Made by a program: the position numbers
Assembly: GCA_965153285.1 (NCBI GenBank)
Contig: OZ229123.1
Direction: 5' to 3' (one strand)
From: Podarcis tiliguerta
Taxonomy: Eukaryota
Length of the DNA stretch: 64,000 bases
Shown here: one piece after another, positions 12,001-57,000 of the stretch
How the letters are laid out: each line of letters starts with the position of its first letter
Numbering within the stretch: the stretch's first letter is position 1

Positions 12001-15000
12001 TGCTTAGGGGCTGCTCCCTAGATTCTTTTCTAGATCCCTAGAGGTGTTTTTTATTCAACTGAGGTTGGTGCATCAAGCCCACCTCTGCTGCTCCTGGAGG
12101 TGCCAGCTCTGGCCCTGGTGAGACATGCCTTTGTTACATCTTGTTTGGGAGACTGCTACATGGGTGACTCTACGTGGAGCTGTCCCTCAAAGATTGTTCA
12201 GGAATTGCTCCTGGCTCAGAATGCTGCAGTCAGGCCCTTGACAGGGGATGAGAGAAGGCCTGGGACTCTCAGGTGACAACAGCTACCATTGCCTCCCAGA
12301 CCATTTTCAGCACAATTCAATGTGCCAATTGTGACTTATAAACCCCTAAAAGGCTCAGGGTTAGACTTCCTGAAGGTTACTCTACTGCACAGCCCTTATC
12401 TGGTATTGCGGTCTTCAAGAGAGGCCTTTCTATCTGTCCAGCCAACATCTGATGCACACTGCTGGGAACTCGAGAAAAGAGTTTCCCCAGAGACTGCATC
12501 CAGAGGCAGGGAGAAGGCCATATAGTCCCCCTTGAGGAGGACTCCATTTAGCCAGGATAAACCATCTTCATTCAAACAGGTGTTTGGCTCACTAGGCTGG
12601 TCTGTTTGGCTCTGTTGCTATGTTTAAATATGTACTTCTAAGTTAACTATGCTTTCAATTAACTGCCTTTTTCTATATGCTTTTATCCAGTTTTATTGCC
12701 ATGTTGTCTAATGACTGATCCTTTTTTATTGCGGATTTTATTACCTTGGACGAAGTACTGTTAGTTACCTTTTGATGGAAAGGCAGGATGTCAAGGTAAC
12801 AAACAAATATCCAAAGAGAAACGTCAGCAATGCAATCTGGCTACATAACCTTCAGATTGTGTCAGTCCCCTCCCTTCTCTCCCCATCTGGCAAATAATCC
12901 AGTCCACCAGCAGGGAGGATCACCTGCTCATCCTCTCAGGGTGGGGCAGGGCAGGAGGCTTAGGACCCAAGGGCCTCTCCTGTTTTGGGGACAGACTCCA
13001 GTTCCTAATCTCCCACACACACAAAAAACCCTTGGATCTGCAGGTTATTCAATATTATCCTCAAAATGTGCACTATAAAATATTGATGGCAGCCTAAAAT
13101 AAAAATAATATGCACTAATAGCCAAATCTGATGAAAGCAGCAGCAACAAAGCCATCTTTTTTGGAAAAAGCCCACTGAAGCAACGCTGCCTTTACTGCCC
13201 TTCTAAAAGTGATAAGAAGCAATTTAGTCAGGCCAAGGGATTTCTGCAGGGAAGTTGTTCCAAATCTGGGTGCCACAACCACAAGGTACATACTGGCTTT
13301 ATGTCTGAACACTGTGGGGCTCCCAAAGCAGAGTCTCAGCAGAGGAATAAAGTTCTCAGCAGACTTGCATACAGGGAGGCATTTCTTGAGATATTCCAGT
13401 CCTGGGCGCTTTAGGGTTGTTTGATGATGATGATGATGATGATGATTTATTATTTATACCCTGCCCATCTGGCTGGGTTTCCCAAGCCACTCTGGGCAGC
13501 TCCCAATAGAATATAAAAAAACAATAAAACATTAAACATTAAAAACTTCCCTAAATAGGGCTGCCTTCAGATGTCCTCTTAATGTCAGCTAGTTGTTTAT
13601 TTCCTTGACATCTGATGGGAGGGTGTTCCACAGGGCGGGCACCACGACCAAGAAGGCCCTTTGCCTGGTTCCCTGTAGCAGTGGCGTAGCGTGGGTTGTC
13701 AGCACCCAGGGCAAGGCAAGTAATTTGCGCCCCCCCCCGCTGCACTGTCCCTCCCCCAGATAGTCCCTCACTCTCTCTCCGCACCACACCGCACGCCTGG
13801 CACCCTCCCCTCCACAGTGGGCGGCGACCCGGCGGCTCGGATCGGATTCGCACAGCCAGCACTGCAGTGAGAGAGAGTGAGTGAGCCAGGTAGGGGCAGA
13901 GAGCTGCGAGTGTGAGCGCGCCCCCCCCCAGATGTTGCGCCCGGTGCGGCCGGCCCCCCCTGCACCCCCCACGCTACGCCACTGCCCTGTAGCCTCACTT
14001 CTCGCAGTGAGGAACTGCCAGAAGGCCCTCGGAGTTGGACCTCAGTGTCTGGGCTGAACGATAGGGGTGGAGACACTCCTTCAGGTATACTGGGTCGATG
14101 CCATTTAGGGCTTATAGGTCAGCACCAACACTTTGAATTGTGCTCGGAAACATGGAAACAAGTGGCAATAAATGTAGGTGGAATGAGACTGAAGTTAATT
14201 TGATCAGAATGACTGGCACCATCAAAACCATAGCAGCTGCATTCTGAAGCTTCTGGAGGGTTTTCAAGGGCATCCCCACATACAGCACATTACAGTGGTG
14301 CCTTGGTTTATGAACTTAATCTGTTCCGGAAGTCCGTTCTTAAACCAAAGCTGTTTTTAAACCGAGGCGTGCTTTCCCTAATGAGGCCTCCCACCACCAG
14401 TGCCCTTCCACCGTTCGGCTTCTGTTTGTAGACTGAGGGAAAGTTCGCTAACCGGAACACTACTTCTGGTTTTGCAGAGTTCTTACACCGAATAGTTCGT
14501 AAACAGGGCTGTTCTTAAACCGAGGTACCACTGTAGTGTAGTTTGGAGGTGACAAGACCAGCCCTGGTTTCTTAAGAAAAGAGCACAGCTGGCATTTAAG
14601 ACACAGCTAGTAAAAGAAACCACTCCTGGCCACTGGTGCCACCTGGCCATCTAGAAGCAAAGCCAAAGCCAGCTCTCCCAAATTGCTGTTTATTACCCTC
14701 ATCCAATCTAAAACCGCTGCTTAGCAGGACCCCTTCCCTCTCCAATTCAAGGCACACAAGCTTGACCTGCCAGGAATTGTGAGAACTGATATTTTTGTGT
14801 TTCGGGAAAGGAGATTATGTATCTTTTACTCCCACACCAGGATTCCCAGGTGGGATTACTGTATTTGTGGTGCAGACACATCCCTTCATTTCCCACAGCA
14901 AAGACAGCATTCTGAGTGGTGCAGATGGCAAGGAGAGAGGTCACACGAACCGCTTCAATGCAAACTAACTCTCAATGTAATGCCGTGAACAAGTGAGAAC

Positions 15001-54000: not shown

Positions 54001-57000
54001 CACTTGCTGTGTCTCTGTTACTTTCTCTCTCTCCGTTTTGTCTTTTGCTTCACAACCGGCCTGGAGAGGAGGCCTGGAGAACCTGGAATCTTCCTCCCCC
54101 CCTCCTGCCCTTTCTCCTAGTGAAGAGGTTGCTCTCTTGTGGTTTGGAGGTGTTCTATTCCCTACATGAACCAATACAGCTCAGGACACATTTTGCTCTT
54201 TAACCTTCATTTTATTTTGCTGGTTTTCTTGGAATACTTCTTAGTGGGTTTGAGCTGGAAGCCAAAGGCAGTCAAAGTCAATGTCGCTTTCCTTTCTTCT
54301 GCTGCTGGCATTTCACCAAGGAAGATCACTGGAACAGACACCTGTAGGGCATGGGTCGGCAAACCAAGGTCCGCGGGCCAGATCAGGCCCAATTGCCTTC
54401 TAGATCTGGCCTGTGGACGGTCCGGGAATCCAGGCAGCCGGCATAGCGCATGAGCGCGCATGATGGTTTTTGCGACTCAGCCAGGCTTGGGGGTCAAAAG
54501 TGAGGCGAGCGGCTGCTTGAGACAAGCCCCTTCTTCATCTGTGATGCACGCGCAGCAACCTTTTCTTCCAGGGTGGGGAAGAGGGAAAAGGAGCCACAGT
54601 TCGGATTTCCACCATGGAGCTGCCAGCAACTGACCTCAGGAAGGGCAGTTGCAGCAGCAGGGGCTCAGAGGCGCCTAAGAAGCAACACCTGCTGGTGTCT
54701 GAGGTGGCGGTGCTCCCCGCCAAAGGAAGCGGGGAGCGCCTGGGGGGCTGCACTCCAAAGCAGTTCTGCGTTCTGCTGGGGAGGCCGCTTGTTTGCTACA
54801 CGGTGTGAGCCATGGAAAGGTAAATAGTCGTCGCCTTGTCTTCCCTCACGTGGGGAAAAGAATGTTTTTGCTTGAGCGGCACTGGCCTGACTTAGCGTGG
54901 CCAACAGCTTTTCCCTTCACCCACACCTGCGCAAACGCTCTCCAGGGCTGACAGAAATGGCGCACTTACCTCAGCCCCCCACCCTGCCTTACAAGAGAAA
55001 TAACTGTCAATGCGTAAAACGCAAAGGAAGCAGCGTGGGTGTGTGAAGGAACACCCCCCCTCAAAAAAATCAGATTTGGGCACCGAATAAGGGTTTTTGC
55101 CCAAAAATGCGGGTCATAATCATGGCAACATATAGTCCGCCCCCTACAAGGTCTGAGGGACAGTAGACCGGCCCCCTGCTGAAAATGTTTGTTGACCCCT
55201 GTTGTAGGGGCTTCCCTGGATAAACAAAGGCGCCCCTCCGGGAACCAACCGCCTTATAGGTCTCCATGAGCATCCCGCCATTGCCCACGAGAGGGCGCTG
55301 CTCCCTCGGTCCGTGGCGGCGCCACTTGCTTTCACCTTCGGGAATCCCTTCGCTTAATTCCGCATTCTGGAAAATCCTCCCCGCAGGAGCGCCCCCTGGA
55401 GGGCATTGATCGAGTTGCATAAGGAAATGGAAGGGAGCGGTCTCTGCCCGCAAGCGGCTTACAATCATCCTAATAGGCAGCAGGGAATGCTATGGGCGGG
55501 GGAGGGGAAGGATTTGAACTCGACCCAACCTGGGAGCGGGGAGGAAGCCAAAATCGGGGGGCGGGGCTCCTGCTGCTGTCCTCACTGCAGCCCTGGGGCT
55601 GCCGCTGCTCAGCTGGTCCGAGCGGTGGTCAGAAGGGAATCCCGCTCCCGCGTGCCAAGAATCAGCCTCACACCTCTCCCTCTAACGCGCGCCTTGCCCG
55701 TTTCCACTTCCCCTGGCAGAGATTAACGCGCGCCTTGCCCGTTTCTCCACTGATTTGGCCAGGAACGGACAACGGGGGGCGCAGGGGGTCTCTCTTGCTG
55801 TTTGAAAGGGACCATCTTTTGCAGGTCCCTTTCAGTCTTCGGCTGACCGGGGTGAGGGTCGTGCTTACCTGGCATAGGGACAGGAGGATATTCTGTCCAG
55901 GGGGGCTGGGTGACATTTCGGGGTCCCGCCCCCTCCCCAGCTTCCGACCAGCCCGCCACACCCCCGCCTCTGCATTGTGTGGACCCCTCCCCGTATTCAA
56001 CCCCCCCCATCTCCTCCCTTTCTTGATGTCACCAGTTGGTCTGGAAGCACCGCCCCGATCCCTCCCCCCACCCCGACGGCGCCCCGCGATTCCGGCACAG
56101 ACAGGGAGGGACGCACCACAAAGAAAGGCGACGGCGGGCCACGGCAGGAGAGGCTGGGGCCGGGGAGAAGGGGTCGCGTCTGTGCAGGAGGTGAGAGAGA
56201 GAGAGGGGGGAGGGCGGGCCGGGGGTGTCTCTGCCTTCAAAGGCTGGCTCTGTGACGGGACTCAGCCCCGAGACCTGTTAGCAGCCAAGACAGACAGTGC
56301 CTCTGCCCATGTGCCGAGAGTCTTTTTTCCCCGGCAGAGGCAGGGCAGGCGGAGGGAAGCCCCTTTTCCCTGGCACAATAGCGCGCCAGGAATTTTGCAC
56401 TCCCCCTCCCAGAGAAAGCCCCTTCAGTTATCATCGAAATTTAGCGTGGGAGGGGCAGAGGCATTTTATATAGCTAAAGGGCTTCCGAGATTTTTTTTGG
56501 GGGGGGGGCGTCTGAATGGCTCTTTTCAGAATTAGAGGGACGCAGGTGATGGCCCCTCTGGCGCGCCCCCCCCCCCAAGTTTAGCCTTAGGCTGGGGATG
56601 TGACAACCAACAGAGCTTGTAACGGAGCTGGGACTGACCCCTCCTGAACTCTGGGGTTCAGCCGTGGCCCTTGGCAAGCAAAACAACCTGATGCCCACGT
56701 GCCCCACCCATCTCAGCAAGGCGCTGGACCAGACCCCCGGTCACCCCACAGCCAGCCCTCAAGGGCCACCCTGAGGCAAGGAGAGGAAGGCATCACAAGG
56801 GGGGTTCTAATAGCCCCCCCCCCACACACACTATATTGCCTGCATTTGCAAAACCCTTCATCTGCTGTTCCCCCACACCAGGCTGTGCTGCCAATCTGGG
56901 CACCCATTAACAAATGTTTGTATCTGTCTTGGATAGAGCATGCTTGCCAACTCAGATTTTGCCACAGAAGCTGTGAACAAAAGTGTATTTCGGAAGGACT

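What the first reader, a model, noticed from the sequence alone, without database searches (positions are those of the whole stretch)
13679..55201. Possible lineage-wide system: several TIR families shuttling CpG-island first exons
Within 42 kb, three unrelated non-autonomous DNA-transposon families (two hAT, one Tigger/pogo) each carry GC-rich cargo with promoter/first-exon/splice-donor character. One cargo is identifiable as CRPPA exon 1. Inference: lacertid genomes may hold a large Pack-TIR population biased to GC-rich 5' gene ends, like plant Pack-MULEs, dispersing promoters and donors.
[Added by the scan's program, not by the reader: the finding's places include an assembly gap (unread letters, written N; its length is only estimated) at 35214 to 35353. 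Whether the letters on both sides are continuous or in frame is not known: test that first.]
Basis: inference. Interest (0 to 1): 0.7.

Follow-up and report, generated by a model that had tools for sequence, protein, structure and literature searches.

The report
Old transposon carrying a CRPPA exon
In a gene-dense stretch of a lacertid lizard genome, one decayed hAT-type mobile element carries a dead copy of the first exon of the CRPPA gene, which is a known kind of transposon gene capture, while two neighbouring elements only have GC-rich middles of unknown origin.

Summary
The three TIR-bounded elements exist. A (13679-13984) has a 17/17 TIR and an 8/8 target-site duplication, so it looks hAT-like. 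C (43016-43583) is TA-flanked and Tigger-like. It holds about 340 bp of GC-rich DNA that its sister copy at 29223-29486 lacks. D (54350-55201) has weak hAT-like ends (TIR 12/15, duplication 7/8).

D encloses a DNA-level copy of the CRPPA 5' flank, exon 1 and splice donor. This copy is 73% identical to Podarcis muralis CRPPA (E 1e-45). It has three in-frame stops and a broken nucleotide-binding motif, and no other CRPPA exon is in the window. The locus is ARPIN / ZNF710 / IDH2, and in Podarcis raffonei CRPPA sits on a different contig from ZNF710. D is therefore an old, dead Pack-hAT.

No host parent was found for the interiors of A or C. Their splice-donor motifs are near chance. High CpG content is shared by plain MITE backbones, a foldback MITE and SINEs in the same window. 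Pack-TIRs are already described in animals (Tan et al. 2021).

The lineage-wide claim could not be tested because no lizard genome DNA was searchable. The assembly gap lies inside a ZNF710 coding exon, outside all elements, and its flanks are colinear and in frame.

Verdict: a new member of a known kind, of low to moderate interest.

The parts
13679..13984 (.). Element A: a 306-bp hAT-like non-autonomous element with a GC-rich interior of unknown origin (centre 13741-13918, bracketed by the 12-bp direct repeat GCGCCCCCCCCC).
   Evidence: 17/17 TIR. 15/15 TIR plus 8/8 TSD in the scan. GC 0.69 and CpG o/e 0.64. No second copy or parent in the window.
13671..13678 (.). Left copy of A's 8-bp target-site duplication CCCTGTAG. 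The right copy is at 13985-13992.
29223..29486 (.). Cs: a plain 264-bp sister copy of C's family, TA-flanked and without the GC-rich insert.
   Evidence: 91% identity to both arms of C; alignment; TIR 16/18 with TA flanks; GC 0.43, CpG o/e 1.34.
43016..43583 (.). Element C: a Tigger-like TA-flanked MITE. Its left tip carries the 8-bp terminal unit three times (43016, 43024, 43032). It lies in an IDH2 intron.
   Evidence: The flanking IDH2 exons are at 44387-44932(-) and 40452-40736(-).
43156..43495 (+). The roughly 340-bp GC-rich filler inside C that replaces about 55 bp of Cs. Parent unknown.
   Evidence: alignment. (GC 0.69, CpG o/e 0.84). No Pfam family in 5 reading frames (1 of the 5 is the CRPPA piece, so 4 cover C). 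No protein hit at E<=10. No match in the window.
54350..55201 (+). Element D: an 852-bp decayed Pack-hAT. Arm limits are estimated at about 54350-54440 and about 55046-55201.
   Evidence: Termini CATGGGTCGGCAAAC and the reverse complement CAGGGGTCAACAAAC, 12/15. Anchored terminal alignment z 3.9.
54342..54349 (.). Left copy of D's 8-bp target-site duplication, CTGTAGGG. The right copy, TTGTAGGG, is at 55202-55209. 7/8 match, with TA at positions 4-5.
54467..54820 (+). Copy of the CRPPA 5' region and exon 1. ATG at 54614, in-frame TGA at 54806-54808, two more stops upstream, and the PAGGxGER motif reads PAKGSGER.
   Evidence: tblastn against P. muralis CRPPA residues 3-123: 88/121 identical, E 1.2e-45. 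PDB 4cvh_A E 9.9e-8. Pfam IspD 22.8 bits, below the cut-off of 27. Translation.
54820..54825 (+). Retained splice-donor-like GTAAAT, exactly where homology to the CRPPA protein ends.
   Evidence: That the parent's exon ends here is inferred.
39889..40359 (.). Element B (comparison, not a cargo carrier): a TA-flanked foldback MITE with a GC-rich palindromic interior and a 109-bp tandem duplication.
   Evidence: 30-nt TIR at 93%. (DNA fold z -17.7). (tandem duplication). (TA flanks). (GC 0.61, CpG o/e 0.71).
35214..35353 (.). Assembly gap. It is not part of any element and lies inside a ZNF710 coding exon.

Best explanation
The span holds three real but unrelated non-autonomous TIR elements in a gene-dense, TE-rich region (ARPIN / ZNF710 / IDH2).

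D is an old Pack-hAT. A break inside, or left by excision of, a short hAT element was repaired by copying from a foreign template: the CRPPA promoter-proximal flank, exon 1, its donor and the start of intron 1. CRPPA lies on another chromosome. Either this happened in place, or the chimera was later moved here by a hAT transposase, which made the 8-bp duplication. The copy then decayed as neutral DNA (stops, broken motif, worn TIR and TSD).

C most likely arose the same way in a Tigger-like MITE, from a GC-rich template that could not be identified. A is a clean hAT-type MITE, and whether its interior is captured or native is undetermined.

These are independent products of the already described animal Pack-TIR process, not shown to be a system.

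Shown: the element ends, the CRPPA identity and decay, the ectopic location, and the insert in C relative to its sister. Inferred: template switching, the order of events, and any promoter or donor activity.
For: D, CRPPA identity:
- tblastn to P. muralis CRPPA gives 88/121 identical, E 1.2e-45. It is the only CRPPA segment in the window; the next hits have E>=0.10.
- All 4 hits at E<=0.001 among 97 candidates are CRPPA, from Podarcis and Rhineura.
- The best PDB hit is 4cvh_A, ISPD.
- Homology runs upstream of the ATG and stops at a GT. It is therefore a DNA-level copy, not a retrocopy.

D, ectopic location:
- Neighbours are ARPIN exons (82.7 and 71.9 bits), ZNF710 (97% to P. raffonei) and mitochondrial IDH exons (E 5e-20 and 6e-29).
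- In P. raffonei CRPPA is on a 61.4-Mb contig and ZNF710 on a 54.0-Mb contig.

D, age:
- The copy matches Podarcis at 52/69 and Rhineura at 49/69, while Podarcis matches Rhineura at 56/70. The copy shares with Podarcis the absence of Rhineura's 12-residue insert.

Element ends: A; C; D.

C insert.

Known process: Tan et al. 2021 (PMC8277862; section 7 read, section 8, passages). They report 370 Pack-TIRs in 100 animal genomes, with hAT (208) and TcMariner (115) dominant, a median capture of 224 bp, 13.4% exonic, and a frog hAT that captured a 5' UTR.
Against: - D's TIR and TSD are individually at chance level: 0.5 such pairs expected per window. A pair I regard as chance (32064/32729) scores z 3.4 against D's 3.9.
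- No second copy of D's or A's family is in the window. No TE consensus library was available, so backbone membership and breakpoints are untested.
- My recollection that D's arms match a common squamate hAT MITE comes from memory only.
- C's insert has no identified parent. With only two copies, Cs could be a deletion derivative of a longer native form.
- The parental CRPPA DNA was never seen; only proteins were compared.
Confidence: 0.55

Rival explanations
1. Only D is a capture. The GC-rich interiors of A and C are native to their MITE (sub)families, and Cs is an internal-deletion derivative. Their closeness to D is a coincidence of a TE-rich, GC-rich, gene-dense region.
For: - GC-rich, CpG-rich sequence is common in TEs here without any gene origin: foldback MITE B (GC 0.61, fold z -17.7) and three SINE copies.
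- The backbones of C and Cs have CpG o/e 1.16-1.34.
- No parent or protein match exists for A or the C insert.
- GTRAGT is near chance.
Against: - C's insert replaces rather than extends sister sequence and has very different composition (GC 0.69 against 0.43-0.51 in the backbone).
- The other plain TA-flanked MITEs in the window are 226-265 bp with GC 0.43-0.54.
- The protein searches are weak tests for non-coding cargo.
Confidence: 0.25
2. One reading: lacertid genomes hold a large population of Pack-TIRs from several superfamilies that preferentially pick up CpG-island promoters and first exons, as rice Pack-MULEs do with GC-rich gene fragments, and so disperse promoters and splice donors.
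For: - One confirmed 5'-end capture (D) and one probable filler-bearing element (C) within 12 kb, plus A, among roughly a dozen TIR elements seen in the window.
- All three interiors are GC-rich. The A centre (0.66) and the C insert (0.69) exceed the 95th percentile of 0.64 for 300-bp windows.
- Exons are over-represented 3.2-fold in animal Pack-TIRs.
Against: - Only 1 of 3 interiors maps to a gene.
- D is old and dead.
- No CRPPA-exon-1 chimeric protein exists among the 4 hits.
- CpG richness and donor motifs do not discriminate cargo.
- The three were picked after the fact.
- My searches found no paper reporting such a population in squamates (listings only).
Confidence: 0.12
3. The CRPPA fragment arrived without any transposon, for example as a templated insertion at a double-strand break, and D's TIR and TSD are chance.
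For: TIR 12/15 plus TSD 7/8 is expected 0.5 times per window. The pattern search is not significant. No family copy exists in the window.
Against: - A chance pair must also enclose the 354-bp fragment. By my arithmetic, the expectation is about 0.5 x 713/64000, or roughly 0.006.
- The ends start CAGGGG/CATGGG as hAT ends do. The duplication is 8 bp with a central TA, matching the Buster consensus nnnTAnnn (PMC3517528, passages read).
Confidence: 0.06
4. This is the true CRPPA exon 1 at its own locus.
For: Exon 1 is followed by a GT donor, and the upstream region is also homologous.
Against: - One in-frame stop inside the canonical exon and two more upstream. Lysine replaces a glycine in the nucleotide-binding motif.
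- Neighbours are ARPIN, ZNF710 and IDH2.
- CRPPA and ZNF710 are on different contigs in P. raffonei and in Rhineura.
Confidence: 0.01

Closest known systems
Animal Pack-TIRs (Tan et al. 2021, Nat Commun, PMC8277862), for example Pack-hAT-N8_XT of Xenopus tropicalis carrying 291 bp of the CAPSL 5' UTR
   Same: A short non-autonomous hAT or TcMariner element with a few hundred bp of host DNA between its arms. TSDs are kept, the captured piece comes from a gene 5' end, and the copy is non-functional. The proposed origin is template switching during break repair.
   Different: D's cargo (at least 354 bp, perhaps about 600 bp) is larger than their median of 224 bp. It is inter-chromosomal, whereas 59.8% of theirs are intrachromosomal. 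It is much more diverged than the young cases their pipeline targets. The words lizard and Anolis do not occur in their main text, and their species tables are in supplements I could not open.
Rice Pack-MULEs (PMC5861414 and the work it cites)
   Same: TIR elements that duplicate GC-rich gene fragments and sit near gene 5' ends.
   Different: A different superfamily (Mutator, 8-11 bp TSD), thousands of copies, many multicopy and expressed. None of that is shown here.
hAT MITEs of the Buster group, for example Mar of Drosophila willistoni (PMC3517528)
   Same: 8-bp TSD, short imperfect TIR starting CAG(G/A)GG. D's duplication has the central TA of the Buster consensus.
   Different: No transposase relative could be examined. 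A's duplication lacks the central TA.
Tigger-like MITEs with TA-CAGTGGTACCTCGG ends (table in PMC4678618, Rhodnius prolixus MITE_109)
   Same: C and Cs start TA-CAGTGGT(A/G)(C/T)C with TA flanks.
   Different: The resemblance covers only about the first 12 nt. There is no autonomous partner and no phylogeny.

Membership tests
Pack-TIR (as defined by Tan et al. 2021): element D | Both ends are arms of a TIR transposon, with a target-site duplication | tested here: inconclusive
   TIR 12/15 and TSD 7/8. This threshold is met 0.5 times per shuffled window. Enclosing the CRPPA piece makes chance unlikely (about 0.006 by my arithmetic).
Pack-TIR: element D | The interior is non-TE DNA with an identifiable parental locus elsewhere | tested here: met
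   CRPPA exon 1 and upstream, E 1.2e-45. The parent gene is on another contig in P. raffonei. Only the protein of the parent was compared, not its DNA.
Pack-TIR: element D | The arms match the consensus of a repeated TE family | not testable with these tools
   No TE library or lizard genome was available. No other copy is in the window. The family resemblance is recalled from memory only.
Pack-TIR: element C | The arms belong to a repeated TIR family and the interior is absent from other copies | tested here: met
   Sister Cs is 91% identical on both arms and lacks 43156-43495. Only one sister copy was available.
Pack-TIR: element C | The interior has an identifiable parental locus | tested here: not met
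   No window match. No protein at E<=10 for the one frame sent. No Pfam family. These are weak tests for non-coding DNA.
Pack-TIR: element A | The interior is foreign to the family and has a parental locus | tested here: inconclusive
   No second copy and no parent in the window. One frame sent against 1.84 billion representatives gave 1 low-complexity hit.
hAT superfamily | 8-bp target-site duplication and a short TIR (5-27 bp) (PMC3517528) | tested here: met
   A: 8/8 TSD and 17-bp TIR. D: 7/8 TSD and about 15-bp TIR at 12/15.
hAT superfamily | Mobilised by, or derived from, a hAT transposase-encoding element | not testable with these tools
   No transposase domain was found among the 298 longest ORFs of the window, and there is no genome to search.
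Tigger/pogo (Tc1-mariner group) | TA target-site duplication and Tigger-type terminal sequence | tested here: met
   C and Cs have TA flanks. Their ends resemble the TIR labelled Tigger-like in PMC4678618. C itself failed my TA scan at 15/18 because its tip is triplicated.
Tigger/pogo (Tc1-mariner group) | Related autonomous element with a pogo-type transposase | not testable with these tools
   None is in the window.
Pack-MULE-like genome-wide system | Many cargo-bearing elements, with a significant bias to GC-rich 5' gene ends | not testable with these tools
   No eukaryotic genome collection was available. In the window, 1 of 3 interiors maps to a 5' gene end.
CRPPA / IspD cytidylyltransferase (as a functional gene) | Intact reading frame with the nucleotide-binding motif and the rest of the fold | tested here: not met
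   Exon 1 only. In-frame TGA at 54806, and K in place of G in the motif. Pfam IspD scores 22.8 bits, below the cut-off of 27.

The most novel reading that the evidence does not exclude
Lacertid genomes carry an unusually dense, multi-superfamily population of Pack-TIRs (hAT and Tigger-like) that preferentially copy unmethylated CpG-island promoters with their first exons and donors. This would scatter ready-made transcription starts through gene-dense regions and make an animal counterpart of rice Pack-MULEs. D, C and A would be three samples of it.
Probability: 0.12. Interest if true: 0.65.

Novelty: new member of a known kind. Interest (0 to 1): 0.3.

Why it matters
As it stands, this is one more example, apparently the first pointed out in a lacertid, of a phenomenon already catalogued in 100 animal genomes: a short DNA transposon that picked up a piece of a host gene. 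It is dead and has no evident function.

It would matter if the density seen here (one sure and one probable case in 12 kb) held genome-wide. Squamates would then have an active route for moving promoters and first exons, which bears on how new transcription starts and chimeric transcripts arise in vertebrates. That is directly testable with the public lacertid assemblies.

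Tried and rejected
I sent stop-to-stop ORFs instead: the 150 longest and the next 148 including two ZNF pieces. ORFs under 78 aa were not scanned, apart from the CRPPA piece.
- A regular expression for the IspD motif, recalled from memory, found nothing because the copy's motif is mutated. Reading the sequence found the copy.
- Host parents for A and the C insert were not found by megablast-like and short-word BLAST within the window, one protein search each (one frame each), or Pfam.
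- Rfam at gathering threshold gave only one tRNA-like hit at 7873-7944, and nothing in A, C or D.
- The first two TIR/TSD scans were faulty or too loose: 0 real hits through a boundary error, then 18 real against a mean of 4.5 in shuffles. They were replaced.
- The fold of A is not clearly palindromic beyond its TIR (z -2.15; 3 of 100 shuffles fold as well), so it argues neither way.
- Literature search by terminal motifs found 1 paper, used only for the Tigger-like label. Searches for squamate Pack-TIR or gene capture found nothing specific (listings only).
- Rejected readings: a retrocopy (upstream flank and donor are kept), the true CRPPA locus (wrong neighbours, stops), and CpG richness as a mark of promoter origin.
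The supplementary tables of Tan et al. (species list, per-species counts) were not seen and may bear on whether any squamate was surveyed.

Full report
**What the window is**

The 64-kb window has GC 0.505, overall CpG o/e 0.28 and one N run at 35214-35353. Pfam scans of the 298 longest stop-to-stop ORFs and follow-up searches place it in a gene-dense interval.
- ARPIN exons lie on the minus strand at 10268-10558 and 11252-11524 (82.7 and 71.9 bits).
- ZNF710 lies on the plus strand. Its large exon starts near 34361, and further zinc-finger exons follow at 36207-36416, 36823-36999 and 37244-37411. The non-finger part is 97% identical to Podarcis raffonei ZNF710, and the next hit is Rhineura at 74%.
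- Mitochondrial NADP-isocitrate dehydrogenase (IDH2) exons lie on the minus strand at 44387-44932 and 40452-40736 (best PDB hits E 6e-29 and 5e-20). The 1.4-kb CpG island at 47151-48550 sits at its 5' side.

The source is therefore a lacertid close to Podarcis. That this gene order matches human 15q26.1, and that human CRPPA is on 7p21, is my recollection and was not tested.

**The gap, tested first**

The N run is in none of the elements. It lies inside the large ZNF710 coding exon. The same frame is open on both sides. P. raffonei ZNF710 residues 1-475 align to 34361-35785 as one ungapped segment, 475 codons over 1425 nt. The flanks are therefore colinear and in frame at the stated gap length. 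I looked only at coordinates and filled nothing.

**Element A (13679-13984)**

The 17-nt terminal word occurs exactly twice in the window, once at each end in inverted orientation. The element is flanked by a perfect 8-bp duplication, CCCTGTAG.

In a scan for a TIR of at least 12/15 plus an 8-bp duplication of at least 7/8 at 100-2000 bp spacing, the window gave 5 pairs. Ten shuffles gave 0,1,0,0,1,2,0,0,1,0. A scores 15/15 and 8/8. This is a real hAT-type footprint: an 8-bp TSD and a short TIR (PMC3517528, passages read).

Its interior is GC 0.66-0.69. It has no other copy or parent in the window and no Pfam family in its long ORFs. One frame sent against 1.84 billion representative proteins gave a single low-complexity hit. 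Its DNA fold is not clearly more stable than shuffles beyond the TIR (z -2.15). Whether the interior is captured or native cannot be decided here.

**Element C (43016-43583) and its sister Cs (29223-29486)**

The 21-nt TIR pattern gives 6 matches against 0.00 expected, all in these two elements. Both are TA-flanked. Ends of this type are labelled Tigger-like in a MITE table for Rhodnius prolixus (PMC4678618, passage read).

The arms are 91% identical. C has about 340 bp (43156-43495, GC 0.69) where Cs has about 55 bp. It is a replacement, as expected from repair by template switching rather than from a nested insertion.

C lies in an IDH2 intron. No parent for the insert was found:
- no match in the window;
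- no Pfam family;
- no protein at E<=10 among 8000 scored candidates for the one frame sent.

My TA-flank scan (7 pairs, 5 distinct elements, against 0,0,0,0,1 in shuffles) missed C itself, because its left tip carries the terminal 8-bp unit three times.

**Element D (54350-55201)**

Inside D, an ATG at 54614 opens a frame that reads like the N-terminus of CRPPA (D-ribitol-5-phosphate cytidylyltransferase, ISPD) up to a TGA at 54806. It then continues for four more matching residues to a GT at 54820.
- The best PDB hit is 4cvh_A, ISPD (E 9.9e-8).
- Pfam IspD scores 22.8 bits, below its cut-off of 27.
- A search of longer proteins found 4 hits at E<=0.001 among 97 candidates. All are CRPPA, from Podarcis raffonei, P. 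muralis and Rhineura floridana.
- tblastn of these proteins against the window aligns P. muralis residues 3-123 to 54467-54820. 88/121 are identical, E 1.2e-45, with three in-frame stops and two small in-frame gaps. No other CRPPA exon is found (next hits E>=0.10).

Homology includes about 150 nt upstream of the canonical ATG and ends at a donor-like GTAAAT. This is an unspliced DNA copy of the 5' flank, exon 1 and the exon-intron junction. The conserved PAGGxGER reads PAKGSGER. It is a dead pseudo-exon.

It is also ectopic. The neighbours are ARPIN, ZNF710 and IDH2. In P. raffonei, CRPPA is on a 61.4-Mb contig and ZNF710 on a 54.0-Mb contig. Rhineura likewise has them on 91.9-Mb and 40.4-Mb contigs.

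Over the canonical exon the copy matches Podarcis at 52/69 and Rhineura at 49/69, while Podarcis matches Rhineura at 56/70. The copy lacks Rhineura's 12-residue insert, as Podarcis does. The capture therefore happened on the lacertid side after that split, but long ago.

**How good are D's ends?**

The left end is CATGGGTCGGCAAAC and the right end, reverse-complemented, is CAGGGGTCAACAAAC: 12/15. The flanks are CTGTAGGG and TTGTAGGG, 7/8.

This is not strong by itself.
- The pattern search gives 2 matches against 0.82 expected, and 18 of 100 shuffles reach 2.
- Pairs at this threshold occur 0.5 times per shuffled window.
- In an anchored terminal alignment D scores z 3.9 (0 of 500 shuffles). 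A pair I take for chance (32064/32729) scores z 3.4 (0 of 500).

What lifts it is that the pair brackets the foreign fragment. By my arithmetic, the expected number of chance pairs enclosing a given 354-bp piece is about 0.006. The ends also begin as hAT ends do, and the duplication is 8 bp with TA at positions 4-5, the Buster-group consensus.

I recall D's arms as resembling a common squamate hAT MITE. That is memory, not a test. No other copy is in the window.

**Do the interiors look like promoters, first exons or donors?**

For D this is shown by homology. For A and C it is not.
- Each has one GTRAGT. The motif occurs 0.26 times per kb per strand, and 23% of the 70 GC-rich 300-bp windows have at least one.
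- High CpG is not cargo-specific. CpG o/e is 1.34 in plain Cs, 1.16-1.23 in C's arms, 0.71 in foldback MITE B (39889-40359; fold z -17.7) and 0.62-0.86 in three copies of a tRNA-derived SINE.
- 7 of the 13 CpG-island-like blocks fall in these TEs.
- GC content alone is unusual. The A centre (0.66) and the C insert (0.69) exceed the 95th percentile of 0.64.

**Mechanism**

The best-supported account is the one described for animal Pack-TIRs (Tan et al. 2021, PMC8277862; section 7 read, section 8, passages). A double-strand break within, or left by excision of, a short TIR element is repaired with a switch to a foreign template, often at microhomology. Some chimeras are later transposed.

That study found:
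- 370 Pack-TIRs in 100 genomes, about 2 per 10,000 TIR TEs;
- hAT (208) and TcMariner (115) dominant;
- a median capture of 224 bp, 13.4% exonic (3.2-fold over background);
- a frog hAT carrying a 5' UTR in three copies.

D fits as an inter-chromosomal case. Whether it was filled in place or transposed after capture cannot be told without outgroup loci. Open, GC-rich promoter chromatin as a preferred template, as argued for Pack-MULEs (PMC5861414, passages read), is a reasonable but untested reason for a 5'-end cargo.

**The system claim**

At the published rate, three Pack-TIRs in 42 kb would be extraordinary. The simpler reading is one sure case (D), one probable (C) and one undetermined (A), noticed together after the fact in a TE-rich, GC-rich region. 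The published pipeline also targets young, well-aligned cases and would miss relics like D.

My literature searches found no report of such a population in squamates (listings only). The main text of Tan et al. does not mention lizard or Anolis, and their supplementary species tables were not available to me.

**Verdict**

D is a new member of a known kind, and interest is low to moderate.

Noticed in passing
window 35214-35353 within 34361-35785: The assembly gap sits inside the large ZNF710 coding exon. A Podarcis raffonei ortholog aligns across it without any indel, so the estimated gap length fits.
   Followed up: yes
window 10268-11524 (-), 34361-37411 (+), 40452-44932 (-), 47151-48550: The gene order is ARPIN, ZNF710, IDH2, with the IDH2 5' CpG island at 47-48.5 kb. 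The ORF 47569-48165(-) begins like an IDH2 N-terminus by my recollection only.
   Followed up: partly
window 10770-11125, 45485-45835 (-), 58320-58662: Three copies (85-90% identical) of a roughly 350-bp tRNA-derived SINE. Their GC (0.56-0.58) and CpG o/e (0.62-0.86) trip CpG-island criteria.
   Followed up: partly
window 39889-40359: A TA-flanked foldback MITE with a 30-nt TIR, nested palindromes, a 109-bp tandem duplication (40040-40237) and an extreme DNA fold (z -17.7). It lies in or next to an IDH2 intron.
   Followed up: partly
window 43016-43039: The left tip of element C carries its terminal 8-bp unit three times in tandem (starts at 43016, 43024 and 43032). The first two are preceded by TA.
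   Followed up: no
window 13727-13738 and 13918-13929: A 12-bp direct repeat, GCGCCCCCCCCC, brackets the central 178 bp of element A. It may mark the edges of an inserted piece or be poly-C slippage.
   Followed up: no
window 54334-54348 vs 55143-55156: The host flank just left of D is inverted-similar (13 of 15 positions, with one gap) to D's right subterminal region. This could be chance, or a remnant of an older copy of the same family.
   Followed up: no
window 54964-54971 (-): A consensus donor, AGGTAAGT, lies on the minus strand inside D's non-CRPPA part. It is the only AGGTRAG in A, C or D. No coding signal lies upstream of it.
   Followed up: partly
window 14293-14533, 21489-21753, 62685-62910: Further plain TA-flanked MITEs of 226-265 bp with GC 0.47-0.54. 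Two have CAGTGGT...CCTC ends related to C's family type.
   Followed up: no
window 7873-7944 and the D3 family: An Rfam tRNA hit (39.9 bits) lies inside another dispersed tRNA-related repeat family with copies near 7872, 9978, 22245, 22414, 27789 and 41066.
   Followed up: no
window 12215-14248 / 12309-14144: Element A appears nested within an older pair of diverged inverted repeats (37 nt at 76%), possibly an older TIR element of about 2 kb.
   Followed up: no
window 55202-56250: A 1-kb CpG-island-like block (GC 0.64, o/e 0.64) starts right at D's right end. The CRPPA promoter and first-exon copy points toward it. No gene could be assigned.
   Followed up: no
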